A stretch of DNA of 64,000 bases from Actinomycetes bacterium (GTDB lineage: Bacteria > Actinomycetota > Actinomycetes > JAHEKZ01). How positions within the stretch are numbered: the first letter of the stretch is position 1; the number at the start of each line of letters is the position of its first letter. Where the stretch lies: NCBI GenBank assembly GCA_027118455.1, contig JAJAYZ010000067.1, forward strand, positions 6,987 to 70,986. Direction: 5' to 3'. Made by a program: the position numbers and the translations under genes. This document shows positions 11,757 through 40,942 of the stretch, piece after piece. Under the pieces are notes generated by a model that saw only the letters and a list, made by a program, of their open reading frames with translations, made no database searches and was not told the DNA's origin.

Positions 11757-13250
11757 ATGGGCTTAGAGACCGAGTTTGGCATCGCCGTTCCCGGTGACGC
11801 TCAGGCCAACCCGGTCATCATCTCGACCCAGATCGTGAATGGTTATGCCACGGGCGAGCCCGGGCTCTCGCACGCGAGGTGGGACTACGAAGAGGAGAAC
11901 CCGCTGCGAGACGCGAGGGGCTTCACCATGGCCAGAGAGGTGGCCGACTCTAGCCAGCTCACTGACGACGGCGCCGGCATGGCCAATGTGATCCTCACCA
12001 ACGGCGCCCGGCTCTACGTCGACCACGCGCACCCGGAGTACTCAAGCCCGGAAGTGACTAACCCCCGCGATGCACTCGCTTGGGACAAGGCCGGCGAGCT
12101 GGTGATGGCCGAGGCCGCACGCCGAGCCGCGCGCGTCCCGGGCGCACCAGCCATCAACCTCTACAAGAACAACACCGACAACAAGGGCGCGTCGTACGGG
12201 ACGCACGAGAACTACCTCATGCGACGCAGCACCCCGTTTCCGGAGATCGTCAAACACCTCACCCCGTTCTTTGTCTCACGACAGGTGATTTGCGGGCAAG
12301 GACGTGTCGGACTCGGACAGCAAGGCACCGACCCCGGATTCCAGATCAGTCAGCGGGCTGACTTCTTCGAGGTCGAGGTCGGACTCGAGACGACCCTCAA
12401 GCGACCGATCATCAACACCCGAGACGAACCGCACGCCGATGCTGACAAATACCGACGCCTCCACGTAATCATCGGCGACGCCAATCTCTCCGAGGTCGCC
12501 GGGCTGCTCAAGGTCGGAACCACTGCTCTGGTGCTCGCCATGATCGAGGAGGGTTTTCTTGCCGACGACCTCGGCCTTTCTCGGCCGGTCCACGAACTTC
12601 ACTTGGTCTCTCATGACCCTGATCTGAAACACCAAGTCGAACTGCGCGACGGGCGGACCATGACGGCTGTGCACCTGCAGCGTGAGTACTGCGACCAGGC
12701 GCACAAGTTCGTCGAAGATCGCATGGGCATTGACGCTGACGACGCAACCACCGAGATCCTCCGCCGTTGGTCACAAGTCCTCGACGACTTGGAGGATGAC
12801 CCGTCGCGTCTGGTCAACCAGCTCGACTGGGTGGCCAAGCGCCAGATCCTGGAGGGCTACCGCTCTCGCGACGGGCTCGCGTGGTCGGACGCCCGACTTC
12901 AGCTGGTCGACCTGCAGTACTCCGATGTGCGCCCGGAGAAAGGGCTCTACCACCGACTTGTCGCCAGTGGCCGGATGGAACGAGTCCTCACTGATGAGGC
13001 AATACGGCAAACCGTCCATACCCCGCCGGAAGATACCCGCGCATGGTTCCGCGGCGAATGTGTCCGGCGCTATGGACCGCAGGTGGCAGCGGCATCGTGG
13101 GACTCAGTGATCTTCGATGTCCCTGGACGACCTTCACTCCAGCGCGTCCCAATGCTTGAACCCCTCCGGGGTACGCGCGCCCACGTCGGAGAGCTTCTTG
13201 AACGTTGCCAGACAGCAGCGGAGTTGGTTGATGCTCTGACGGGCGCCTGA
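11757..13250 (+). CDS. dop: Pup deamidase/depupylase Dop
   Basis: N-terminal MGLETEFG.. matches the Dop/PafA family (glutamine-synthetase-like fold). Distinguished from PafA by its position upstream of pup and by the Dop-specific insertion. Start taken at ATG 11757. Confidence 0.88.
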
Positions 13251-13368
13251 GCACGTTTGACCCATCTCCATCAGCTCGTGGCGCGTCGGGGGTTCAGAGC
13301 GAGCCAGCACCGGTCGATCCGACTAGGGTCGAGTTCTGAGCAGTGACGTGGACGTGGAGGTTCCAGAC

Positions 13369-13575
13369 ATGAGCGCACAGGAGACTGGCGGGCAGAAGCA
13401 CGCCGAGCGTCGGACCGAAGAGGTAGACGAAGCTCCGGCCGAGACGACCGGCGTTGCTGAGCGTCACGAGGCGCTCAGTGAAGACGTTGACGCGATTCTC
13501 GACGAGATCGATGAGGTCCTCGAGGAGAACGCTGAGGAGTTCGTTCGTGCATTTGTCCAAAAGGGAGGCGAGTGA
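13369..13575 (+). CDS. pup: Prokaryotic ubiquitin-like protein Pup (C-terminal GGE variant)
   Basis: 68-aa acidic protein ending ..[15 protein letters not shown], the canonical Pup C-terminus. GGAGGT lies 7 nt upstream of ATG 13369. The ORF track's 13348 start adds 7 unconserved residues. Confidence 0.9.
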
Positions 13576-14426
13576 GTTCTGTGACTCACCCTGAGCGTTT
13601 GGGATCGTTACCCGCTGCATTCATGCGAGCCGGGAGCTCATCGTTCAGTGACTTCCTCGCTGACCACGCGCCCACCCTGCTGCCTGGCGGAGCGGGGTCG
13701 GGCACCGGAAGTGCAGCCGATATTGACGCCCCCCACGGCACGACCATCGTGGCATTGAGCTTCGACAACGGCGTTGTGATGGCAGGCGACCGGCGCGCAA
13801 CGATGGGCAACATCATCGCCCAACGCGACATCGAGAAGGTTTATCCGGCCGACGAGTACAGCGCTGTCGGCATCGCCGGTACGGCCGGTCTCGCGATCGA
13901 GTTGGTCCGACTTCTTCAGGTCGAGCTGGAGCACTACGAGAAGATTGAGGGAACGACTCTTTCGCTCACCGGTAAGGCGAACCGGTTGGCAACGATGATC
14001 CGGGGAAACCTCGCGATGGCGATGCAGGGACTCGCCGTGGTTCCGCTCTTTGCCGGTTACGACCACGAGACTACCCGTGGTCGCATTTTCAGTTACGACG
14101 TCACTGGTGGACGTTATGAAGAGCACTCGTTTCATGCCGTCGGGTCTGGCGGTTTCTTCGCGCGGGGGTCTCTGAAGAAGCTCTACAAGGGCCAGATGCC
14201 CGAGGCCGACGCAGTCATGGCTGCAGCGCAAGCGCTCTACGACGCCGCAGACGACGACTCTGCGACCGGAGGCCCTGACCTCATGCGCCGAATCTTTCCG
14301 GTGGTGTCTGTCGTCTCGGCCGAGGGCTACCGCCGCTTGCCAGATGCCGAGGTCGGCGACGTCGTCGAGCGGCTCGTTGCAGCCCGCAACCAGCGCCCAG
14401 ACGGCCCAGCCTCGCCGTTGACCTGA
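13572..14426 (+). CDS. prcB: Proteasome subunit beta PrcB (with propeptide)
   Basis: Propeptide followed by ..HGTTIVAL.., placing the catalytic Thr after the processing site. Ntn-hydrolase beta-subunit family. GTG start overlaps the pup stop (GTGA). Confidence 0.9.
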
Positions 14427-14460
14427 GCCCACAGCCACTCACCGCAGGAAAGGAAGGCCC

Positions 14461-15174
14461 GTGTCCGTTCCGTTCTACGTCTCGCCTGAGCAAATCATCA
14501 AGGACAAGGCGGACTACGCACGCAAGGGCATCGCCCGCGGACGATCCGTGGCAGTCCTACAGTACCGGGACGGAATCGTCTTCGTTGCGGAAAACCCGTC
14601 GCGAGCCTTGCACAAGGTGAGTGAAATCTACGACCGGATTGCCTTTGCGGCCGTGGGCAAGTACAACGAGTTCGAGAACCTTCGAGTCGCCGGTATCCGG
14701 CTCGCCGATCTCCGCGGCTACTCGTTCGACCGTCGCGATGTGACCGTGCGGAACCTTGCCAACGCTTACGCACAAACGCTCGGCACCATCTTCACCGAGA
14801 CATCTAAGCCCTACGAGGTTGAGATCGTTGTCGCCGAGGTTGGCGACCAAGCCTCGGGCGACCAGATGTATCGGCTCACTTTCGACGGCTCCGTTGCCGA
14901 CGAACATGGCTACGTGGTCATGGGTGGATCCGCTGAGGTGATCAGCACCTCGCTTGAGTCAACGTACGAGGAGGATCTCGAGCTGGGTCCGGCAATCGTG
15001 CTGGCCATCGATGCTCTTTCCAGCGACGGAGCCGGGGGAGAGAACGGCGAACCGCGTCAGATCACTCCGGCCCAGCTCGAGGTCGCCGTTCTCGACCGCA
15101 CCCGTACGCAGTCCCGCAAGTTCAAGCGGTTGGCCGCTGATCGGCTTGTTGAGCTCCTGCCGAGCGGCGGGTAG
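14461..15174 (+). CDS. prcA: Proteasome subunit alpha PrcA
   Basis: Near-colinear with M. tuberculosis PrcA ([26 protein letters not shown]..). Confidence 0.9.
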
Positions 15175-29970: not shown

Positions 29971-30465
29971 GTGGATGAGCTCGACGGACACGACCGGCAG
30001 ATCGCCCAGCTGCTCAGTGCAGACGGCAGGATGAGTTACACCGAGCTGGCCAAGCACACGGGACTCTCGACGTCTGCGGCTCACCAACGGGTTCGACGAC
30101 TCGAACAACGCGGCGTCATCACCGCGTATCGAGCAAGCATCGATCTTTCAGCCATCGGACTGCCCATGACGGCATTCGTGTCGATCTCACCCATTGACCC
30201 CGCAGACCCCGACGACATCCCCGATCGGGTCGCTCATCTGCGGGCCGTTGAGTCGTGCTACAGCGTGGCCGGTGACCACAACTACGTCCTCAACGTCCGG
30301 GTTGCCAGCCCAGTAGCCCTTGAGCAGCTCCTAGCCGACCTGCGTGCCAGCGCCCACGTCACCACCCGGACCACGGTGGTTCTGAGCATTCCGTACGAGA
30401 ACCGCCCACCCGATCTCGGCGACAATCCAGGAGACGAGGCCGACGGGGACACCGCTCCCTGGTAG
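29971..30465 (+). CDS. Lrp/AsnC family transcriptional regulator
   Basis: N-terminal HTH (DRQIAQLLSADGRMSYTELAK) and C-terminal RAM domain. Confidence 0.85.
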   Translation: MDELDGHDRQIAQLLSADGRMSYTELAKHTGLSTSAAHQRVRRLEQRGVITAYRASIDLSAIGLPMTAFVSISPIDPADPDDIPDRVAHLRAVESCYSVAGDHNYVLNVRVASPVALEQLLADLRASAHVTTRTTVVLSIPYENRPPDLGDNPGDEADGDTAPW

Positions 30466-31494: not shown

Positions 31495-32952
31495 CTAGTG
31501 AGTCGGCGCCATATCAGAAGCTGCAGCCGCCCTCGACGCCGCAGCTGCAGCGTGCGTCTCCGCGGCAATCTGGCCCTTGGGGTAGCCCTCATTGATCCAC
31601 CACTCTTGGCCCTCTTGGGGCAGTGAGTGCACTGGGTCGTAGTAGACATGCTTTTTCCGCACAGCATCTGGGTCTTCGAGCTCGATCCCGGTGCGGTAGT
31701 TCTTTGACCAGTACGAGATCCCGAGAACGTGGTCGTACTCGTCGACTTGGTGCACCCAGCGCTTGCCGACGAACGGCACGTCGCAAGTGACTCGTGGGGT
31801 CGCAAATCCCGGCAGGTAGCCCATGACGCCATGCTGCAGCCGCTGTGCGTCAGCCAACGAGACGCGCCAGTGCTCAGCAAAGGGAATCATGTCAGGCATG
31901 TAGAAGTAGTAGGGCAGGATGCTGGCCTCATCGAGCAGGGCGAAGCAGAGGTCGAGCAGCTGGTCGACGCTGTTGTTGATGCCGGCCATCAGGACACCCT
32001 GATTGCGAACATCACGAATACCGACGTCCAGCAGGCCTCGCGATGCTCTGGCGACCAACGGCGTTACTGAGTTGGCGTGGTTGACGTGGGTGTGGACGGC
32101 CAGGCCAACACCGCGACTGGAGGCCTTGGTCGCCAGTCGTTCGGCTCCGGCCAGGACATCGTCGGAGTACCAGTGCTGGGGGAGCCCCATCAAAGCCTTG
32201 GTGGCCAGCCGGATGTCACGGATGTTCTCGACGTCGAGGATCTTGTCGACGTAGGCCTCGAGGTTCTTCCATGGCATGTTGCCGACGTCGCCACCTGAGA
32301 CCACCACGTCACGGACCGACGGGGTCGCCCGCAGATAGTCGAGGTGTTGCTGCATGCGGTCGACCGGCTTCAGCTCCAGCTTCAGCTTCTTCACGGTCGG
32401 GGTGGAGTTACCGACGAGGTCCATCCGCGTGCAGTGTCCGCAGTACTGCGGACAGGTAGAGAGCACCTCGGCGAGCACCTTGGTCGGATACCGGTGGGTG
32501 AGCCCCTCAGCTCGCCACATGTCGTGCTCGTGCAAGGAGTCGCGGCTGGAGTAGGGGTGCGACGGCCAGTCGGTACGCCGGTCACTGAACACCGGGAGCA
32601 TGTAGCGACGCACCGGGTCGACGTAGTAGGCCTCGGTGAACGTCTGCGGGGTCGGTGTACCGGTGTCGTGCGAGTCCGGGACCATGGTGTTGACCATTTG
32701 CGGAGTGATCAGCATCGACATCGTTGCGCGCTCGGCCTGATCTAGCTCAAGATCGTCGTAGAAGTCGTCAGTCAGCAGATCACCCATCAGGGCGCGCAAC
32801 TGCTTGATGTTCTTGACGCAGTGTGCCCGTTGCCACTGTGCGTCTTCCCACTCAGAAGTGGTGACCTCACTCCAGCCTGGAAGGCGCGTCCAATCTGGTT
32901 CGCGGACCTCGTGCTGGCGGTAGTCGTACGGCTGGGGTAGCGGATGGCTCAC
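31495..32952 (-). CDS. kamA: KamA-family radical SAM aminomutase (lysine 2,3-aminomutase-like)
   Basis: CPQYCGHCTR radical-SAM CxxxCxxC motif in the KamA context, with PLP-binding region. 485 aa. Confidence 0.8.
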   Translation of the reverse strand: MSHPLPQPYDYRQHEVREPDWTRLPGWSEVTTSEWEDAQWQRAHCVKNIKQLRALMGDLLTDDFYDDLELDQAERATMSMLITPQMVNTMVPDSHDTGTPTPQTFTEAYYVDPVRRYMLPVFSDRRTDWPSHPYSSRDSLHEHDMWRAEGLTHRYPTKVLAEVLSTCPQYCGHCTRMDLVGNSTPTVKKLKLELKPVDRMQQHLDYLRATPSVRDVVVSGGDVGNMPWKNLEAYVDKILDVENIRDIRLATKALMGLPQHWYSDDVLAGAERLATKASSRGVGLAVHTHVNHANSVTPLVARASRGLLDVGIRDVRNQGVLMAGINNSVDQLLDLCFALLDEASILPYYFYMPDMIPFAEHWRVSLADAQRLQHGVMGYLPGFATPRVTCDVPFVGKRWVHQVDEYDHVLGISYWSKNYRTGIELEDPDAVRKKHVYYDPVHSLPQEGQEWWINEGYPKGQIAAETHAAAAASRAAAASDMAPTH

Positions 32953-33123: not shown

Positions 33124-34197
33124 GTGACTCGAACGACTCCATCGTCGCCCGTAGGACTTCACCGTGTCATCGAGCCGCGCGGAGTTCTGCCGCAGGCCGC
33201 CACCAGAGTTAACGCCAGCCCCGAGATCTGGCCAGACGAGGTCCGGGTGGCCGTCTCGGTGCTCAACCTCGACGCAGCCTCATTCCGGCAGTTGATCACC
33301 AAGCACGACGGCGACGGCGACGCCGTCCGCAGCGAGGTACTCGAAATCATCGCCGACCGGGGGAAGATGCAGAACCCAGTGACCGGTTCAGGCGGCATGC
33401 TCGTCGGCACCGTCGACGAGGTGGGTCCGGAGGCCACCTTCGACGTCACGGTCGGGCAGCAGATCACGACGCTCGTCTCGCTCAGCCTGACTCCGCTGGT
33501 GGTGACCGACGGGCTCGTCCGTTGGAGTGGCCTGAGCGAGCAGGTGCCGTGCGACGGCTACGCGATCCTCTTCGGGCGAACGATTGCCGCCTCGGTACCG
33601 CATGACCTCCCGCCAACGCTGGCTATGGCGGTCATGGACGTCGCAGGAGCCCCGGCTCTCACCGCGAGGGTGGTGCTGCAGTACGTGGATCGGGGTCACC
33701 CGCCGACCGTTGCAGTGATCGGCGGGGCAGGAAAGAGCGGATCGCTCTCCCTGGCCGCCGCGCGTGACAGCGGCGCTAAGAGGACTGTCGGCATTGTCCC
33801 CGTTCACGCTGAGGCCGAGTTGCTCAGCGAGGTCGATTTGGCCGACGTCGTTGCGATTGCAGATGCCCGAGATCCGGTGGCTCTGTCTACGGCTGTCGAG
33901 CAGTCGCTGGGTGCTCCGGCTGATATCACCGTGGTCTGCGTCGACGTCCCGGGATGTGAGCACGGGGCCATCCTGGCCACGTCACCAGACGGCGGCACCG
34001 TCATTTTCTTCTCCATGGCAACCTCTTTCACCGCAGCCGCCCTCGGGGCCGAAGGACTCGTCTCGGATACGACCATGCTGATTGGAAATGGCTACACGCC
34101 AGGCCATGCTGAGTACGCCTTCGACCTTTTGCGCCGCTCGGCTGGCGTTCGTGACCTCTTTACCCGTCGGCTAGCTCACGAGGAGAGAGCGGGGTGA
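33124..34197 (+). CDS. kdd: L-erythro-3,5-diaminohexanoate dehydrogenase
   Basis: N-terminus HRVIEPRGVLPQ... and the motif GKMQNPVTGSGGMLVGTV match Kdd of the lysine fermentation pathway. Confidence 0.75.
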   Translation: MTRTTPSSPVGLHRVIEPRGVLPQAATRVNASPEIWPDEVRVAVSVLNLDAASFRQLITKHDGDGDAVRSEVLEIIADRGKMQNPVTGSGGMLVGTVDEVGPEATFDVTVGQQITTLVSLSLTPLVVTDGLVRWSGLSEQVPCDGYAILFGRTIAASVPHDLPPTLAMAVMDVAGAPALTARVVLQYVDRGHPPTVAVIGGAGKSGSLSLAAARDSGAKRTVGIVPVHAEAELLSEVDLADVVAIADARDPVALSTAVEQSLGAPADITVVCVDVPGCEHGAILATSPDGGTVIFFSMATSFTAAALGAEGLVSDTTMLIGNGYTPGHAEYAFDLLRRSAGVRDLFTRRLAHEERAG

Positions 34198-35813
34198 CCA
34201 CCACGCTGTATCGCGGAGGGCTGGTCTACAACACCGCCGAGCCCTTTGCCACCGCGCTGGTAACCCAGGACGACCTCGTTGCTTGGGTCGGATCAGATGA
34301 GGCTGCCCGCGTCAACGCCGACGGAGTTGACGTCGTCGTCGAGCTCGATGGAGCGCTGCTCACGCCCGCCTTTGTTGACGCGCATGTCCACACGACCTCG
34401 ACGGGGTTGAACCTGTCCGGCCTCGACCTCTCGGACACCAAGTCCCTGGAGGAGGCGCTTGCGCGCCTGGAGGCACACTCCAGAAGCGTGCGCGGCGCCG
34501 TGGTGCTCGGGCATGGGTGGGATGAGACCAGGTGGCCCGAGGCTCGTCCGCCACGTCGCGACGAGGTAGACCGTGCTTCATACGGTGGGGTTGTCTATCT
34601 TTCCCGCGTTGACGTCCACTCGTGCATCGCATCCTCGGCCCTGCTTGCGCTTGCTCCCGAAGTGAGCAATGCAGCCGGCTACTCAGCCGATGGATGGCTC
34701 TCCCAGCAAGCGCATCACGTCGTACGTCGGATCGCACTCGACTCAGTCACCCCTGCTCAGCGCCGAGCAGCTCAACGGCTCTGCCTGCAGCATGCAGCGT
34801 CGCTCGGCATCGGTATGGTGCACGAGCTCGGTGGTCCCGAGATCTCCAGTGCCGACGACTTCGCCGACCTCCTCGCCACGGTTGGCCCAGAGTCGGGCGT
34901 CGAAGTTGTCGGCTATTGGGGCGAGGGCGGGGGTCCTGATGTCGCACTCTCGCTCGGGGCACGCGGTGCGGCGGGAGACCACTTCGTCGACGGCGCGATT
35001 GGCTCGCGAACCGCTTTCTTGCGAGACACCTATGCCGATGCCGAGACGCACGGCGCCGCGTACACGACAGCAGCCACGATCCGCGACCACGTCATTGCAT
35101 GTTCGATGGCCGGCGTGCCGGCCGGTTACCACGTGATCGGCGATGGCGCGATGGACCTGGTCGTCGCTGGCTTCACCGAAGCAGCAGAGGCAATCGGCGA
35201 CGATGTGGTTCGAACGGCCCAACACCGGCTTGAGCATGTCGAGATGGTCGACGGCTTGGCCAGGGCAGTGCTCGCGCGCCTAGGAGTTCTCGCCAGCGTG
35301 CAACCAGTGTTCGATGCCTGGTGGGGTGGGGACACCGGCATGTACACCGAGCGACTCGGTGCCGCCCGGGCAGCGACCCTCAACCCATTCGCCAGCATGC
35401 AGGCGGCCGGGATCCCGTTGGCTTTCGGCTCTGATGCCCCCGTGACACCCCTGGCTCCGTGGCAGGCGATCCGGGCGGCTGTCCATCACCATCAGCCAGA
35501 AGAGCGGCTCACCGCACGTTCTGCATTCACCGCACACACCCGCGGTGGATGGCGAGCGGCTGGACGACGCGGCGGCGTCCTGGCGCCGGGTGAGCCGGCC
35601 ACCCTGGCGTTGTGGCAGTGCGATGAGCTTGTGGTCGAGACTCCAGACGATCGGGTTGCCGCCTGGTCGACCGACCCGCGGGCGGGTGTCCCTGGCCTTC
35701 CGTCGTTGGAGCCCGGCACTGCAGACCCGGTGTGTCTGCGCACGATCGTCGCAGGTCGTACGGTCTACACCAGTGACGCCGTCCAACCAATCAACCCTGG
35801 GAGGGGTAAGTGA
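34194..35813 (+). CDS. Metal-dependent amidohydrolase (Amidohydro_3/YtcJ-like)
   Basis: N-terminal HxH (DAHVHT), conserved His/Asp residues and a C-terminal GSDAP motif. Overlaps kdd by 4 nt. Confidence 0.75.
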   Translation: MTTTLYRGGLVYNTAEPFATALVTQDDLVAWVGSDEAARVNADGVDVVVELDGALLTPAFVDAHVHTTSTGLNLSGLDLSDTKSLEEALARLEAHSRSVRGAVVLGHGWDETRWPEARPPRRDEVDRASYGGVVYLSRVDVHSCIASSALLALAPEVSNAAGYSADGWLSQQAHHVVRRIALDSVTPAQRRAAQRLCLQHAASLGIGMVHELGGPEISSADDFADLLATVGPESGVEVVGYWGEGGGPDVALSLGARGAAGDHFVDGAIGSRTAFLRDTYADAETHGAAYTTAATIRDHVIACSMAGVPAGYHVIGDGAMDLVVAGFTEAAEAIGDDVVRTAQHRLEHVEMVDGLARAVLARLGVLASVQPVFDAWWGGDTGMYTERLGAARAATLNPFASMQAAGIPLAFGSDAPVTPLAPWQAIRAAVHHHQPEERLTARSAFTAHTRGGWRAAGRRGGVLAPGEPATLALWQCDELVVETPDDRVAAWSTDPRAGVPGLPSLEPGTADPVCLRTIVAGRTVYTSDAVQPINPGRGK

Positions 35814-37402
35814 CGCGACGAGGTAAGGGCAAGCTCGAGCTTGACCCCGCCGTGGTCCGAAAGGCTCGTAGCCTCGCGCGCAAGGCCGGTAAGCCCATCG
35901 TGACTCTGGCAAAGACGCACACCACGGTGTCCGTCGAGCGAGCAGTACTGCGTCTCGCCGGATTGTCAGGTGCCGATGCCGAGGGGCAACCCTGGGTGAA
36001 CCATGTCGCCGACGCCGTGCGTCAGGACGTCGGCCTCGAGCACGGCGTTGCCCTTCCGGTCTGGCATGCGATGGCGTCAGGTCAGTTCGCCGACCTGACC
36101 GCTCTCGCGCAGAAAGCCGCCGCAGGAGGGGTGATCTTCCACGCCCCCGAGGGGCGAGACGCCACCCGTGCCCGCAGCGCGTCCCGAAAGGCTGCGGCTG
36201 CCGGCCTGCGAAAGATCGACAGCAACCGCAAGGCTCGCGACCGGTTCACCAAGAAGTATGGCGACCCACCCAAGCCATGGATCTACCTGATCGTCGCCAC
36301 CGGGGATATCTACGAGGACATGCCGCAGGCACAGGCTGCGGCACGCGAAGGTGCCGACATCGTGGCCGTGATCCGATCAACAGGCCAGTCGCTGCTCGAC
36401 TTCGTCCCAGAAGGGCCGACTCGTGAGGGTTACGCGGGCACGTATGCGACGCAAGAGAACTTTCGCTTGATGCGCTCAGCTCTCGACGAAGTCTCTGCCG
36501 AACTTGGACGCTACGTACGATTGACCAACTACGCGTCGGGTCTCTGCATGCCCGAGATTGCGACGTTGGCCGGCCTGGAGCGCCTCGACATGATGCTCAA
36601 TGACTCGATGTACGGAATCCTCTTTCGCGACATCAACCCGATCCGCACCTTCGTCGACCAGCGCTTCAGCAGGCAGATCCATGCACGGGCGGGGATCATC
36701 ATCAACACCGGCGAGGACAACTACCTCACGACGGCGGACGGCGTCGAGGCTGCACACACCGTCACCGTCAGCCAGCTTCTCAACGAGTTCTTCGGCAAGG
36801 AAGCCGGGCTCGTCGACGACCAGCTTGGTCTGGGCCATGCCTTCGAGATCAATCCGACCGTGCCCGAGTCGTTCCGGCTCGAGCTGGCCCACGCCTTGCT
36901 GGCCCGCGAGCTCTTCCCCAACGCGCCGCTGAAGTGGATGCCGCCCACCAAGCACATGACCGGCGATGTGTTCGGTGGCTATCTGCTGAACGGCTTCTTC
37001 AACCTGGTCGGCTCAATGACGGCGCAGGATATCCTCCTGGTCGGCATGTTGACCGAGGCCGTTCATACACCGTGGTTGTCGGACCGCGATCTCGCCCTGC
37101 AGAACGTTCGCTACGTGATGGAGTCGACCCGTGGGCTGGCCGAGGACTTCGTCCCGGCGCATGACGGATTCATCGTCCAACGCTCGCGCCAGGTGCTGGG
37201 GGAGGCCATCGAGCTGCTCGAGCGGATCGTGGACGACCAGCTGCTCAACGCCATCGCCGACGGCACGTTCGGGCTGATGAAGCGCCCGGCCGACGCCGGC
37301 CGCGGACTCGACGGGGTCGCCAAGCACTCCAACTCTTACTACAACCCGGCCAGCGAACTACTCGACGAGTACTTCGCCGACGCGAAGGGGCATGCTCGAT
37401 GA
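35810..37402 (+). CDS. kamD: D-lysine 5,6-aminomutase alpha subunit-like (KamD)
   Basis: N-terminus ..LDPAVVRKARSLARKAGKPIVTLAKTHTTVSVERAVLRLAG.. closely parallels KamD/OraE-family large subunits. 530 aa. Confidence 0.8.
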   Translation: MTRRGKGKLELDPAVVRKARSLARKAGKPIVTLAKTHTTVSVERAVLRLAGLSGADAEGQPWVNHVADAVRQDVGLEHGVALPVWHAMASGQFADLTALAQKAAAGGVIFHAPEGRDATRARSASRKAAAAGLRKIDSNRKARDRFTKKYGDPPKPWIYLIVATGDIYEDMPQAQAAAREGADIVAVIRSTGQSLLDFVPEGPTREGYAGTYATQENFRLMRSALDEVSAELGRYVRLTNYASGLCMPEIATLAGLERLDMMLNDSMYGILFRDINPIRTFVDQRFSRQIHARAGIIINTGEDNYLTTADGVEAAHTVTVSQLLNEFFGKEAGLVDDQLGLGHAFEINPTVPESFRLELAHALLARELFPNAPLKWMPPTKHMTGDVFGGYLLNGFFNLVGSMTAQDILLVGMLTEAVHTPWLSDRDLALQNVRYVMESTRGLAEDFVPAHDGFIVQRSRQVLGEAIELLERIVDDQLLNAIADGTFGLMKRPADAGRGLDGVAKHSNSYYNPASELLDEYFADAKGHAR

Positions 37403-38202
37403 GCAAACGCGCGGAGCCGCACATCATTCGCCCCTATGGTGACGCCACCGGCGACGGCCAGGTCCAAGTGTCCTTCACGCTTCCCATTGCGCACGACAAG
37501 CGAGCCGAGGGAGCAGCACTCCAGTTGGCGGCCAAGATGGGTCTTGAGCCGGCCATGGTGGTGCATGCCAAGCAGATGGGACCGCACTTCACCTTCTTCG
37601 TCGTCTACGGGCGCTGCAGCCACCTGGTCGACCTCAACAAGGTCGTCGTCATGGAGCGTGAGTTCCCTCTTCTCTCACCGAAGGAGGTCAGCGCGGCGAT
37701 CAAGCGCTCGTTGCGGCGTCCACTGGTGGTGATTGGTGCCTGCATCGGTACCGACGCCCACACGGTCGGCATCGACGCGATCTTGAACATCAAGGGTTGG
37801 GCTGGGGAGAAAGGGCTGGAGGCCTACAGCGACCTCGAGGTGCACAACCTCGGCGCCCAAGTATCCGTCCCTGATCTGGTGGAGCATGCGCAGAGCCTCA
37901 AAGCTGACGCCGTGCTTGTCAGCCAGGTGGTGACGCAACGAGAGGCTCACCTCCACAACGTCACGCAAATGTCAGCTGCGTTCCGCGAGGCATACCCGGC
38001 TGGAACAACGCCGGTGCTGATCGTTGGAGGCCCGCGCTTCGACGAGAGTGCTGCGTCTGAGCTAGGCGTCGACCGCATTTTTGTGAAGGGAACGACACCC
38101 AGCGAAGTTGCCAGCTACCTGGCGCACCGGCTCTGCGCGACGCCGGCCGGCACTCGTCGGCCCAACGCCAAGAAGAAGAGCAAGAAGGCAGGAGTGCGCT
38201 GA
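37399..38202 (+). CDS. kamE: D-lysine 5,6-aminomutase beta subunit-like, cobalamin-binding (KamE)
   Basis: ..IRPYGDATGDGQVQVSFTLP.. KamE-family N-terminus followed by a B12-binding Rossmann domain. Overlaps kamD by 4 nt. Confidence 0.8.
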   Translation: MSKRAEPHIIRPYGDATGDGQVQVSFTLPIAHDKRAEGAALQLAAKMGLEPAMVVHAKQMGPHFTFFVVYGRCSHLVDLNKVVVMEREFPLLSPKEVSAAIKRSLRRPLVVIGACIGTDAHTVGIDAILNIKGWAGEKGLEAYSDLEVHNLGAQVSVPDLVEHAQSLKADAVLVSQVVTQREAHLHNVTQMSAAFREAYPAGTTPVLIVGGPRFDESAASELGVDRIFVKGTTPSEVASYLAHRLCATPAGTRRPNAKKKSKKAGVR

Positions 38203-38618
38203 TGCCAGATCCCACCGACCACAAGCTTGGGAAGAGCATCACGCATCGGCGGTACGTGCCCTACTCGCACGCTCACTATGCAGGGAACTTGGTCGACGGG
38301 GCGTACACCCTCAGTCTCTTCGGCGATGTGGCTACCGACTTGATGATCGTCACCGACGGCGACGAAGGGCTCTTCGCCTCATACTCCGACATCCAGTTCA
38401 CTGCCCCGGTTCGCGCGGGTGATGTCCTCGAAGTCACCGCGACGGTCAGCAGGGTTGGGCGGCGCAGCCGAGAGCTCACGTTCACCGCCCGTGTCGTCAG
38501 TCGCGGCCGGCCCGACCTCGGAGAGGCCGCTGCCGAGGTGCTCGCCGAGCCAAAATTGGCCGTTTCGGCCATCGGCACCATCGTCGTTCCCCCACCCGTG
38601 GCCACCGCGGAAGCGTGA
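38202..38618 (+). CDS. kal: Hotdog-fold protein resembling 3-aminobutyryl-CoA ammonia-lyase (Kal)
   Basis: HYAGNLVDGAYTLSLFGDVATDLMIVTDGDEGLFASYSDIQFTAPVRAGD matches the Kal family of the lysine fermentation pathway. 138 aa. Confidence 0.6.
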   Translation: MPDPTDHKLGKSITHRRYVPYSHAHYAGNLVDGAYTLSLFGDVATDLMIVTDGDEGLFASYSDIQFTAPVRAGDVLEVTATVSRVGRRSRELTFTARVVSRGRPDLGEAAAEVLAEPKLAVSAIGTIVVPPPVATAEA

Positions 38619-38636: not shown

Positions 38637-40208
38637 GTGAGCACTATCGCCAAGGGCCAGCCCACGGCTCGAAAGGTTGAGCCCTTACCGGCCAGGCCCG
38701 TTCCGTTGTTGGCGACGGTTCTCGCCTCGGCGGCGATCGGTGGTTTCCTGGTGCTTGCCTTCCCTCCGTATGACCTGTGGTGGTTGGCCCCCGTGGCCGT
38801 CACTGGGATGCTCGCCGCACTAGACCTTGGGACGCGGACCGGCCGCCCGATGCTTCGTGGTGCTCTGCTCGGGGCGGTCTTCGGGTTGGTCTTCTTCGGC
38901 CTGCTGACGCCATGGCTGCGAGTCATCGGCCCCGATGCCTGGCTGCTGGTGGTGGTGCTGTCGGCAGCTTTCACCGCGCTGTTCGGCGCCGGCGCCACGC
39001 TACTCGTACGTCTGCGTGGATGGCCGTTCTGGGTCGCTTGCTGGTGGGTTGGTGTCGAGGCACTACGGGGACGGGTGCCTTTCGGCGGTTTTCCCTGGGG
39101 TCGGTTGGGCCATTCGCAGGCCGACGCGCCAACGGCCGCTTGGGCCTCGGTGGGTGGCGTGCCCCTGCTGGGTTTCATCCTCGTGCTGGCAGGTGCCCTG
39201 CTGCTGGTCGCAGTCAAAGCGGCCGTTCGCCGTCATCTGCTTCGATCTGCCATCGCGGCGGGCGCCGCTCTTGCCATCGTGCTCAGTGGCCTGGCGATCC
39301 CGCTGGCCACAGCTGGACGTCAGATCACCGTCGCGATTGTCCAGGGCAACGTTCCTCGAACTGGAATGGACGCATTCGGACAACGCGAGGCGGTGCTGGC
39401 CGCTCACCTGGACGCTACGCACCAGCTCGCCGACGACGTCCGGGCTGGCGCCGTCGCCGCGCCTGACGTGGTCATCTGGCCTGAGAACGCCTCCGACATC
39501 GATCCGGCGCTGGACGCTGATGCGTTCGCTGCCATCGATGACGTGGTCAAGGACGTCGGTGTCCCGGTACTGGTGGGGATGGTTGTGGAGGTCGACGGCG
39601 GGGATCGGGTGGCCAACCAAGGCACGGTGTGGGACCCGGTCACAGGTCCTGGCGCTTCGTACATCAAACAGAACTTGGTTCCGTTCGGCGAGTACGTCCC
39701 GTTCCGCTCAACCGTCGAGAAGTTCATCACGCGATTGGACCGGATCCCCCGCGACTTCGTTGCTGGTGACAAGCCAGGGGTGATCGACCTTGGTCCCGTT
39801 ACTGTTGCCGACGTCATCTGCTTCGACGTCTCGTTCGACTCGGCAGTCCGCGATGCCGTCGCGGGCGGGGGCGAGTTGATCACGGTGCAGACCAACAACG
39901 CCACGTACGGACGCACTGGTCAGGTCGAGCAACAGTGGGCGATGAGCCGGCTCCGGGCGGTTGAGCATGGCCGTACGGTTCTCGTCGCCTCCACGAGCGG
40001 TATCAGCGGGATCATCGCCCCGGACGGTGAGGTCCAAGCCGAGACCCCAGAGTTCGTGCAGCAGGTGGTTGTCGAGTCGGTGGTTGCCAGAACCGACCAA
40101 ACCCTCGCCACGCGGGTAGGCGCTTGGCCCGAGCTGGTCTTGTCCCTTCTTGGTCTCGGCGCGGTCGTGCTGGCGGCCGTGCGTCGACGAGGCAGAATCG
40201 CAGCATGA
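38637..40208 (+). CDS. lnt: Apolipoprotein N-acyltransferase Lnt
   Basis: N-terminal polytopic membrane domain plus CN-hydrolase domain (..VICFDVSFD.. catalytic Cys region). GTG start. Confidence 0.85.
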
Positions 40209-40942
40209 ACGGCGACGTACTGGTCATCATCCCGACCTACAACGAGCGACCATCACTGCCACCGATCGTGCAACGCGTCCGGGCGGCAACTCCGGACGCC
40301 CACATCCTCATCGTCGACGACAACAGCCCGGACGGCACCGGCGATCTCGCCGACTCGCTCGCGGCCGAAGACGACCACATCGAGGTTCTCCACCGCACCG
40401 CCAAGAACGGACTGGGAGCTGCCTACCTGGCCGGTTTCCGGTGGGGGATGAGCCGTGGATTTGATGTGCTCGTCGAGATGGACGCCGACGGCTCTCATCG
40501 GCCCGAGCACCTGCCGGCAATGTTGGACGCTCTGCGATGCGCAGACGCCGTCATCGGGTCGCGCTGGGTGCCTGGAGGCGGCGTCGTAAACTGGCCACGT
40601 CACCGGCAATGGCTGTCCCAAGGCGGAAACCGCTACACGCAGTTGATGCTGGGACTGGGAGTCCATGATGCGACCGCCGGTTACCGCGCCTATCGCCGTA
40701 GCGCGCTGGAGCGCATGGACCTGTCGACGGTCTCCTCGCAGGGCTACTGCTTTCAGGTCGATCTCACCCGACGTGCGGCGGCCGCTGGGCTGAGGATCGT
40801 CGAGGTACCGATCACGTTTGTCGAACGCGAGCAAGGCGACAGCAAGATGAGCGGGGCTATCGTCGCCGAAGCGCTGTGGCGCGTCACTCAGTGGGGGGTA
40901 ACGAGCCGTGCGCGGCACCTTGCACAACGGGGCTGCCGCTGA
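40205..40942 (+). CDS. ppm1: Polyprenol-phosphate mannose synthase (GT2; Ppm1/dolichol-phosphate mannosyltransferase-like)
   Basis: [17 protein letters not shown]...[13 protein letters not shown]...[10 protein letters not shown]2 motifs. ATG 40205 overlaps the lnt stop (ATGA). This lnt-ppm1 pairing corresponds to the fused M. tuberculosis Ppm1. Confidence 0.85.

What the first reader, a model, noticed from the sequence alone, without database searches (positions are those of the whole stretch)
34194..35813. Amidohydro_3 hydrolase sits where the 3-keto-5-aminohexanoate cleavage enzyme (kce) is expected
The canonical lysine fermentation pathway needs Kce between Kdd and Kal. No Kce-like (DUF849/BKACE) gene is in the cluster. 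Instead a 539-aa metal-dependent amidohydrolase is wedged between kdd and kamD with 4-nt overlaps on both sides. With the Kal-like hotdog protein this implies a variant pathway chemistry, such as hydrolytic rather than thiolytic processing, or an amide-linked lysine derivative as the true substrate.
Basis: inference. Interest (0 to 1): 0.55.

Follow-up and report, generated by a model that had tools for sequence, protein, structure and literature searches.

The report
Lysine deacylase, not a Kce substitute
The amidohydrolase wedged into this lysine-breakdown gene cluster matches the known actinomycete epsilon-lysine acylase, which frees lysine from N6-acyl-lysine, and the supposedly missing Kce enzyme is most likely encoded elsewhere in the genome, so the pathway chemistry is ordinary.

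Summary
A 539-aa Amidohydro_3 ORF (34194-35813) overlaps kdd and kamD by GTGA junctions, and no BKACE gene lies in the window.

The headline interpretation, a stand-in for Kce, is not supported.
1. The genome has two BKACE genes elsewhere. One, split by an assembly break (C36/C87), has intact orthologues whose best PDB and NCBIfam matches are genuine Kce. In 201 class genomes this orthologue occurs in 75 of 78 kamD-positive genomes and 3 of 123 kamD-negative ones.
2. The amidohydrolase is the positional orthologue of the Streptomyces epsilon-lysine acylase (EC 3.5.1.17). It is 56-60% identical over its full length. All five published metal ligands are conserved. It sits in the same lrp-X-lnt-ppm1 slot as a Streptomyces gene bounded by the published SgELA cloning primers.
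3. The two are separable. The gene occurs without kam genes in 54 genomes. The kam cluster occurs without it in 22, with kdd directly next to kamD in three loci. One genome carries a copy lacking the three C-terminal ligands.

This is a new member of a known kind. The link between the acylase and the kam cluster appears unreported in the searched literature. The scan holds no look-alike on other DNA.

The parts
34194..35813 (+). YtcJ-like Amidohydro_3 metal hydrolase, orthologue of actinomycete epsilon-lysine acylase (EC 3.5.1.17). Predicted metal ligands are H64, H66, H313, H348 and D414.
   Evidence: Pfam PF07969 at 244.6 bits. 60% identity over 525 aa to Streptomyces protein P0121. 56% identity to the G098 gene bounded by the SgELA primers, with ligands aligned to SgELA H76/H78/H330/H365/D431. 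AF2 model pLDDT 89.6; best PDB matches are 3ICJ and 3IGH.
33124..34197 (+). kdd, L-erythro-3,5-diaminohexanoate dehydrogenase. Its stop overlaps the amidohydrolase start (GTGA).
   Evidence: NCBIfam NF052381 at 247.2 bits, cut-off 200; junction read.
35810..37402 (+). kamD, lysine 5,6-aminomutase alpha subunit. Its start overlaps the amidohydrolase stop (GTGA).
   Evidence: NF052384 at 696.8 bits, cut-off 600; junction read.
37399..38202 (+). kamE, lysine 5,6-aminomutase beta (B12-binding) subunit.
   Evidence: NF052385 at 340.2 bits, cut-off 280.
38202..38618 (+). kal, 3-aminobutyryl-CoA ammonia lyase (hotdog fold). Its substrate is the product of Kce.
   Evidence: NF052388 at 180.7 bits, cut-off 160.
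31495..32952 (-). Divergent KamA-family radical SAM aminomutase, the presumed lysine 2,3-aminomutase.
   Evidence: TIGR00238 at 158 bits (cut-off 199) and TIGR03820 at 146 bits (cut-off 525). No Pfam hit at E<=0.001. Always divergent from kdd in related loci.
29971..30465 (+). Lrp/AsnC-type regulator, the conserved upstream flank of the slot that holds the acylase.
   Evidence: Pfam HTH_AsnC-type plus AsnC_trans_reg. Lies next to the acylase orthologue in Streptomycetaceae loci.
38637..40942 (+). lnt (38637-40208) and ppm1-like GT2 (ORF listed as 40124-40942; the true start may be later). This is the conserved downstream flank of the slot.
   Evidence: TIGR00546 lnt at 272 bits; Glycos_transf_2. 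Synteny in 55 of 80 loci for lnt and 39 of 80 for ppm1.

Best explanation
The ORF encodes an orthologue of the actinomycete epsilon-lysine acylase. This is a binuclear-metal, YtcJ-like amidohydrolase that hydrolyses the N6-amide of N6-acyl-L-lysine to free L-lysine plus a carboxylate.

In this lineage it is translationally coupled to kdd and kamD. It most likely acts upstream of the pathway as a feeder. The lysine it releases would be converted by KamA to beta-lysine, by KamDE to 3,5-diaminohexanoate, and by Kdd to 3-keto-5-aminohexanoate. That intermediate would be cleaved with acetyl-CoA by a conventional BKACE-type Kce encoded elsewhere (split over contigs C36 and C87), and the 3-aminobutyryl-CoA product deaminated by Kal.

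Shown here: the gene identities, orthology to the characterised acylase lineage, conservation of the metal ligands, the existence and phyletic coupling of the unlinked Kce-like gene, and the dispensability of the amidohydrolase for the kam cluster.

Inferred: the actual substrate of this copy, its feeder role, and Kce activity of the unlinked BKACE.
For: Identity of the amidohydrolase:
- SgELA, SmELA, ScELA and SamELA are YtcJ-like/M38 enzymes. SgELA is described as specific for N-epsilon-acetyl-L-lysine, with ligands H76, H78, H330, H365 and D431 (PMC10699109; PMC11511702).
- The SgELA reverse cloning primer matches exactly at the 3' end of the window protein's orthologue in Streptomyces genome G098. 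The forward primer matches with one mismatch at its start. That gene lies in an lrp-X-ppm1 arrangement.
- Residues 76, 78, 330, 365 and 431 of that gene are H, H, H, H, D and align to window H64, H66, H313, H348 and D414. Identity is 56% over 530 columns.
- Identity to Streptomyces P0121 is 60% over 525 aa. The N-terminus of P0121 is near-identical to the SgELA sequence in the paper's supplement (compared by eye).
- A tree of 72 orthologues follows taxonomy. Kam-linked, kamA-only and kam-free copies are interleaved inside Pseudonocardiaceae.
- No alignment column separates kam-linked from kam-free copies, and 93 columns are invariant.

It is not Kce:
- All 80 related loci carry the orthologue between lrp and lnt/ppm1, but only about 30 also carry kdd/kamDE/kal, and none has a BKACE within 8 kb.
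- Among 201 class genomes, 54 have the acylase without kamD and 22 have kamD without it.
- kdd lies directly next to kamD in G040, G155 and G169.
- G110 keeps a copy in which the three C-terminal ligand positions are substituted.

Kce elsewhere:
- PF05853 matches lie on C44, C36 and C87.
- Intact orthologues of the C36/C87 gene score best against NCBIfam Lys_ferment_KCE, at 276-280 bits.
- They also score best against PDB Kce 2Y7D, at 209 bits against 137 or less for any other solved BKACE.
- The orthologue is found in 75 of 78 kamD-positive and 3 of 123 kamD-negative genomes. It matches kamD genome for genome in the mixed families f5, f16, f26 and f31.
Against: - No activity was measured. At 56-60% identity the window protein lies outside the 75-94% identity range of the four characterised acylases, so its substrate could differ, for example N6-acyl-beta-lysine.
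- The physiological substrate of these acylases is unknown even in Streptomyces.
- The Kce-like gene stays below NCBIfam's equivalog cut-off of 382 bits. It is unlinked, has no conserved neighbourhood, and is broken by an assembly gap in this genome.
- Three kamD-positive genomes lacked it. One of them, G195, is in the same genus and 99% complete.
- Genomes in the sample are related, so the co-occurrence counts overstate independence.
- The counts include the unpublished genome G024. G029, also unpublished, falls in the 'neither' cell for both pairings.
Confidence: 0.66

Rival explanations
1. The enzyme is an acylase of the same family, but here it acts on an N6-acylated beta-lysine such as N6-acetyl-beta-lysine. 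It would release beta-lysine directly for KamDE, so the cluster would catabolise an acyl-beta-lysine.
For: In Amycolatopsis the gene is kept next to kamA alone, with no kdd/kamDE/kal. This hints at a link to the beta-lysine step rather than to the whole pathway. Precedent from memory, not tested here: the Bacillus subtilis kamA operon includes a beta-lysine acetyltransferase (YodP) and a putative deacylase (YodQ), and methanogens make N6-acetyl-beta-lysine.
Against: No acetyltransferase gene was identified among the genes annotated between lrp and ppm1. No alignment column distinguishes kam-linked copies from the Streptomyces-type enzymes. Those enzymes are characterised on L-lysine derivatives.
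Confidence: 0.14
2. The amidohydrolase is functionally unrelated to the kam genes. It is an ancestral resident of the lrp...lnt-ppm1 slot, and the kam genes have merely come and gone around it.
For: All four combinations occur in the same slot: acylase alone, kamA plus acylase, full cluster with acylase, and full cluster without it. Co-occurrence of the acylase with kamD is only modest: 56 genomes have both, 22 have kamD only, 54 have the acylase only and 69 have neither.
Against: Where both are present the acylase lies between kdd and kamD. Start/stop overlaps or abutment with kdd are seen in several lineages (window, L007, L014, L078). Its known product, lysine, is the substrate of the pathway.
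Confidence: 0.17
3. One reading: the amidohydrolase replaces Kce and processes 3-keto-5-aminohexanoate, or a lactam of it, hydrolytically.
For: Position between kdd and kamD with translational coupling, and no BKACE in the cluster.
Against: A Kce-like BKACE co-occurs with kamD in 75 of 78 genomes. Kal, which needs the Kce product 3-aminobutyryl-CoA, is present above its cut-off. Kam clusters exist with no amidohydrolase, or with a copy lacking the three C-terminal ligands. The same enzyme lineage is kept in 54 genomes that lack Kdd/KamDE. From general knowledge, C-C cleavage of a beta-keto acid is not a typical reaction of this superfamily.
Confidence: 0.03

Closest known systems
Epsilon-lysine acylases SmELA, ScELA, SamELA and SgELA of Streptomyces (EC 3.5.1.17; YtcJ-like amidohydrolase, MEROPS M38)
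   Same: Same length class (539 aa against 538-548). 56-60% identity over the full length. Identical five metal ligands. One orthologous lineage by tree. Same lrp-X-lnt/ppm1 genomic slot.
   Different: Less similar than the characterised enzymes are to each other (75-94%). Here the gene is embedded in and translationally coupled to kdd/kamDE, whereas the Streptomycetaceae loci examined have no kam genes. The His177 that the SgELA paper calls oxyanion-forming aligns to Ser164.
3-keto-5-aminohexanoate cleavage enzyme Kce (BKACE/DUF849; PDB 2Y7D) of the lysine fermentation pathway
   Same: The genome's unlinked C36/C87 BKACE lineage matches Kce best among solved structures and among NCBIfam BKACE models. 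In the alignment it shares the HLHIR, STGGAV and GGH-R-G-ED motifs with Kce.
   Different: The amidohydrolase itself has no BKACE domain. The candidate Kce is not clustered with the kam genes, unlike the canonical clusters as recalled (not checked here), and it scores below the equivalog cut-off (276-280 bits against 382).
Uncharacterised YtcJ-like metal hydrolases 3ICJ and 3IGH (Pyrococcus)
   Same: Closest solved fold: Foldseek E 7e-32, TM 0.66-0.75; phmmer E 3.5e-27.
   Different: Only 24% identity and no known function, so they say nothing about the substrate.

Membership tests
Epsilon-lysine acylase (EC 3.5.1.17, YtcJ-like/M38) | YtcJ-like Amidohydro_3 fold | tested here: met
   PF07969 at 244.6 bits, full length. 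AF2 model pLDDT 89.6, nearest to 3ICJ and 3IGH.
Epsilon-lysine acylase (EC 3.5.1.17, YtcJ-like/M38) | Metal ligands H76, H78, H330, H365, D431 (SgELA numbering, PMC10699109) | tested here: met
   They align to window H64, H66, H313, H348 and D414 through the G098 gene bounded by the SgELA primers. All are invariant in 72 orthologues.
Epsilon-lysine acylase (EC 3.5.1.17, YtcJ-like/M38) | Orthology to a characterised enzyme (one lineage, shared synteny) | tested here: met
   The SgELA primers bound the orthologue in G098, in an lrp-X-ppm1 context. The tree follows taxonomy. One match per genome in nearly all of the 110 positive genomes.
Epsilon-lysine acylase (EC 3.5.1.17, YtcJ-like/M38) | Sequence identity within the range of the characterised members (75-94% among themselves) | tested here: not met
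   56-60% identity. It is filed as an orthologue and probable isofunctional member, not a proven one.
Epsilon-lysine acylase (EC 3.5.1.17, YtcJ-like/M38) | Hydrolysis of N6-acyl-L-lysine | not testable with these tools
   Needs an enzyme assay.
Kce / BKACE (as the identity of the amidohydrolase) | BKACE (DUF849, PF05853) TIM-barrel domain | tested here: not met
   Only Amidohydro_3 and Amidohydro_1 match. PF05853 matches lie on other contigs.
Kce (as the identity of the unlinked C36/C87 BKACE) | Score at or above the NCBIfam Lys_ferment_KCE equivalog cut-off (382 bits) | tested here: not met
   The genome's own pieces score 165 and 84 bits. Intact orthologues score 276-280 bits. Kce is the best model in each case but the scores are below the cut-off.
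Kce (as the identity of the unlinked C36/C87 BKACE) | Closest characterised relative is Kce, and occurrence is tied to the rest of the pathway | tested here: met
   Best PDB hit is 2Y7D at 209 bits, against 137 or less for other BKACE structures. Found in 75 of 78 kamD-positive and 3 of 123 kamD-negative genomes.
Lysine fermentation-type pathway (KamA, KamDE, Kdd, Kce, Kal) | Each enzyme present at equivalog level | tested here: inconclusive
   Kdd, KamD, KamE and Kal are above their cut-offs. The KamA-like and Kce-like genes are below theirs.

The most novel reading that the evidence does not exclude
In many Actinomycetes the epsilon-lysine acylase is the dedicated entry enzyme of an acyl-lysine catabolic route. 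N6-acyl-lysine, or N6-acyl-beta-lysine, would be deacylated and the lysine skeleton then degraded through the B12/radical-SAM aminomutase pathway, with an unlinked Kce. This would give EC 3.5.1.17, so far known only as a biocatalyst, its first physiological role. It would also show that the so-called fermentation pathway serves acyl-lysine salvage in actinomycetes.
Probability: 0.35. Interest if true: 0.45.

Novelty: new member of a known kind. Interest (0 to 1): 0.27.

Why it matters
This removes an apparent pathway anomaly. No new chemistry is needed, because Kce is simply unlinked in this and related actinomycete genomes.

It also yields a modest, testable hypothesis. Epsilon-lysine acylases are valued industrially for N-lauroyl-lysine synthesis, but I found no assigned cellular role in the two papers read. 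Here they sit inside lysine-catabolic operons in many lineages, which suggests a role in salvaging acylated lysine.

For annotation, the sub-threshold actinomycete BKACE clade is a strong Kce candidate. The kam pathway is also common: kamD was found in 78 of 201 sampled class genomes.

Tried and rejected
- Literature searches for '3-keto-5-aminohexanoate' with 'amidohydrolase', and for 'lysine acylase' with 'aminomutase', found no paper. A search on Kdd/Kal with Actinobacteria returned only butyrate-pathway surveys, judged from titles and abstracts.
- I looked for residues that separate kam-linked from kam-free amidohydrolases and found none, so there is no sign of neofunctionalisation.
- The Foldseek PDB search returned only uncharacterised YtcJ-like structures and generic amidohydrolases, which say nothing about substrate.
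- I tried to join contigs C87 and C36 by end overlap. There is none, because the C87 end is low-complexity junk, so the integrity of the Kce-like gene in this genome could not be shown.
- The neighbourhoods of the Kce-like gene in three genomes hold different genes (YgfZ-like and Fur; an NsdA-family regulator; RsiG-like and asparaginase II), so context gives no support.
- The 3.5-5 kb inserts between the acylase and kamD in some MAGs gave no Pfam hit on either strand.
- The ASMC paper gave no active-site residue list for Kce. My comments on Kce residues therefore rest only on the motif alignment.
- SgELA His177, called oxyanion-forming in the paper, is not conserved here. By my hand count of the alignment it is also absent from the Streptomyces orthologue P0121. 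I do not treat it as defining.
Full report
**Observation**

The window has about 65% G+C. The ORF listing gives a 539-aa ORF at 34194-35813 on the + strand. Pfam calls it Amidohydro_3 at 244.6 bits over residues 48-525. NCBIfam has no specific model for it.

NCBIfam places its neighbours above their curated cut-offs:

| Gene | Coordinates | Bits | Cut-off |
|---|---|---|---|
| Kdd | 33124-34197 | 247 | 200 |
| KamD | 35810-37402 | 697 | 600 |
| KamE | 37399-38202 | 340 | 280 |
| Kal | 38202-38618 | 181 | 160 |

A KamA-family radical SAM gene lies divergently at 31495-32952. It scores below its cut-offs and has no Pfam hit. The genes lnt, a ppm1-like GT2 and fxsA follow downstream. An M24 peptidase, an acyl-CoA dehydrogenase and an Lrp/AsnC regulator precede the cluster. 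Both GTGA start/stop overlaps were read directly from the sequence. No BKACE match lies on the window's contig.

**Is Kce missing from the genome?**

It is not. A PF05853 search of the 2.83-Mb, 100-contig assembly found two BKACE genes.

The first, on C44, sits beside a carnitine dehydrogenase, its thioesterase domain, a crotonobetainyl-CoA-hydratase-like gene and an acyl-CoA dehydrogenase. It is most likely the dehydrocarnitine cleavage enzyme.

The second is split between the start of C36 and the end of C87. The C87 end is low-complexity junk, so this is an assembly break.

- Its orthologues are intact in same-genus genomes. They are also intact in Actinokineospora (L098, 288 aa) and Streptoalloteichus (L097), at 67-69% identity.
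- These intact proteins score best against NCBIfam Lys_ferment_KCE, at 276-280 bits. The next model scores about 200, but the Kce score is below the 382 cut-off.
- Among solved structures they score best against genuine Kce 2Y7D, at 209 bits. Every other BKACE structure scores 137 or less. The HLHIR, STGGAV and GGH-R-G-ED motifs are conserved in the alignment.

**Phyletic test**

I searched the same evenly drawn sample of 201 genomes of the class, each at least 90% complete, with KamD, with the intact BKACE orthologue, and with the amidohydrolase. Counts were tallied.

| Comparison | Both | kamD only | Other gene only | Neither |
|---|---|---|---|---|
| kamD and BKACE orthologue (identity >=53%) | 75 | 3 (G074, G136, G195) | 3 (G061, G154, G191) | 120 |
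| kamD and amidohydrolase | 56 | 22 | 54 | 69 |

kamD and the BKACE orthologue were each found in 78 genomes. In families with mixed states (f5, f16, f26, f31) the same genomes carry both.

Genomes in the sample are related, so the Fisher P value is not a true probability, but the pattern spans more than 20 families. The counts include the unpublished genome G024, which is positive for all three genes. G029, also unpublished, carries only a weak BKACE paralogue match and falls in the 'neither' cell for both pairings. By subtraction, leaving both out gives 74 genomes with both kamD and the BKACE orthologue, 3 with each alone and 119 with neither. For the amidohydrolase it gives 55, 22, 54 and 68.

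**What is the amidohydrolase?**

The search for related loci returned 80 actinomycete loci with a full-length relative at 52-86% identity. A tblastn map of their neighbours shows the gene always lies between lrp and lnt/ppm1. The kam genes around it vary:

- The full set kamA | kdd-X-kamD-kamE-kal occurs in about 30 loci, including uncultured lineages, Actinokineospora, Streptoalloteichus, Allokutzneria and Saccharothrix.
- kamA alone occurs in Amycolatopsis.
- No kam genes occur in Streptomyces, Kitasatospora and Saccharopolyspora.
- No locus has a BKACE within 8 kb.

From memory I suspected the Streptomyces epsilon-lysine acylase, and the literature confirmed the lead. SmELA, ScELA, SamELA and SgELA are YtcJ-like/M38 enzymes. 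SgELA is described as specific for N-epsilon-acetyl-L-lysine (11.1 U/mg), with ligands H76, H78, H330, H365 and D431 (PMC10699109; PMC11511702).

The link was then tested by sequence.

- The top Streptomyces hits P0119 and P0121 (538 aa) are 60% identical to the window protein over 525 residues.
- The N-terminus of P0121 is near-identical to the translated SgELA sequence in the paper's supplement, compared by eye.
- The published SgELA reverse cloning primer matches exactly at G098:C24:65176-65197. That is the 3' end of the orthologue which one search had found independently at 63593-65182.
- The forward primer matches with one mismatch at the start of that gene.
- The gene is 548 aa and lies in an acyl-CoA-DH ... 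lrp-X-ppm1 arrangement.
- Its residues 76, 78, 330, 365 and 431 are H, H, H, H, D, the published numbering. They align to window H64, H66, H313, H348 and D414, at 56% overall identity.

**One lineage, with no sign of a changed function**

A maximum-likelihood tree of 72 orthologues follows taxonomy. The primer-bounded acylase falls in the Streptomycetaceae clade. Inside the well-supported Pseudonocardiaceae clade, full-cluster, kamA-only and kam-free copies are interleaved. For example, the kam-free Actinosynnema pretiosum copy is nested among full-cluster copies. At least five changes of context are needed.

Ninety-three alignment columns are invariant, including all the catalytic His, Asp and Glu candidates. 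No column separates kam-linked from kam-free copies.

The AF2 model (pLDDT 89.6) is a standard amidohydrolase barrel. Its nearest solved structures are the uncharacterised 3ICJ and 3IGH at 24% identity, so structure adds no substrate information.

**Dispensability**

In G040, G155 and G169 the order is kamA | kdd-kamD-kamE-kal-lnt-ppm1, with kdd directly next to kamD. All three genomes carry the Kce-like BKACE.

In G110 the slot holds a 494-aa Amidohydro_3 ORF at 34% identity. The positions aligned to H313, H348 and D414 are substituted, and the N-terminal HxH region does not align. The kam pathway therefore does not require this enzyme's catalysis.

**Mechanism**

The best-supported reading is an N6-acyl-lysine amidohydrolase that releases lysine, the pathway's substrate. 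In this lineage it is co-translated with kdd and kamD. 3-Keto-5-aminohexanoate would be cleaved by the unlinked Kce, which supplies Kal with 3-aminobutyryl-CoA.

Three rivals remain:

- The substrate is an N6-acyl-beta-lysine. This is suggested by the kamA-plus-acylase pairs in Amycolatopsis and by the B. subtilis kamA-yodP-yodQ precedent, which I recall from memory.
- The acylase is only a syntenic bystander.

**Novelty**

This is a new member of a known enzyme kind within a known pathway. No paper in the searchable library links lysine acylases with the aminomutase cluster. The association itself is therefore a small new lead for the physiological role of EC 3.5.1.17. Earlier notes of this scan describe the same cluster on this window only, and a sequence look-up found no look-alike on other DNA.

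Noticed in passing
G000 contig C44:37800-45400 (locus L004 5808-13346): A carnitine-type catabolic cluster: a BKACE (317 aa), a carnitine 3-dehydrogenase split into a dehydrogenase ORF and a separate 4HBT_2 thioesterase ORF, an acyl-CoA dehydrogenase and a crotonobetainyl-CoA-hydratase-like gene. This BKACE is probably the dehydrocarnitine cleavage enzyme rather than Kce.
   Followed up: partly
window 31495-32952 (-): The KamA-like gene (485 aa) has no Pfam match at E<=0.001 and stays below every NCBIfam cut-off (TIGR00238 at 158 bits, cut-off 199). Yet it is conserved divergently from kdd in all full clusters. It may be a distinct actinomycete 2,3-aminomutase subfamily.
   Followed up: no
L058, L060, L061, L063, L066, L072, L073, L076, L077, L079, L080 (Amycolatopsis): Amycolatopsis keeps only kamA (divergent) plus the acylase next to lnt-ppm1, without kdd/kamDE/kal. 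In A. orientalis no BKACE was found in the whole genome. What beta-lysine is used for there is unexplained.
   Followed up: partly
L109:10767-12251 (-) (genome G110): Between kdd and kamD lies an intact 494-aa Amidohydro_3 ORF, 34% identical to the window protein. The positions aligned to H313, H348 and D414 are substituted and the N-terminal HxH region does not align. It is either a pseudoenzyme or a decaying copy.
   Followed up: partly
L023, L024, L047, L049 (between the acylase at about 9550 and kamD at about 13100-14800): Inserts of 3.5-5 kb separate the acylase from kamD in some MAGs. The ORFs tested on both strands of L024 and L047 gave no Pfam match.
   Followed up: partly
G000 contig C87, last 70 bases (L006 9717-9786): The contig ends in poly-C/poly-A low-complexity sequence, an assembly artefact that truncates the Kce-like gene.
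   Followed up: yes
Class-wide sample: The KamD-type lysine pathway is common in this actinomycete class. It was found in 78 of 201 sampled genomes and in 51 of 113 genera, and in the loci examined it lies in the lrp...lnt-ppm1 slot.
   Followed up: partly
window 40124-40208: The longest ppm1-like ORF (TTG at 40124) overlaps lnt by 85 nt.
   Followed up: no
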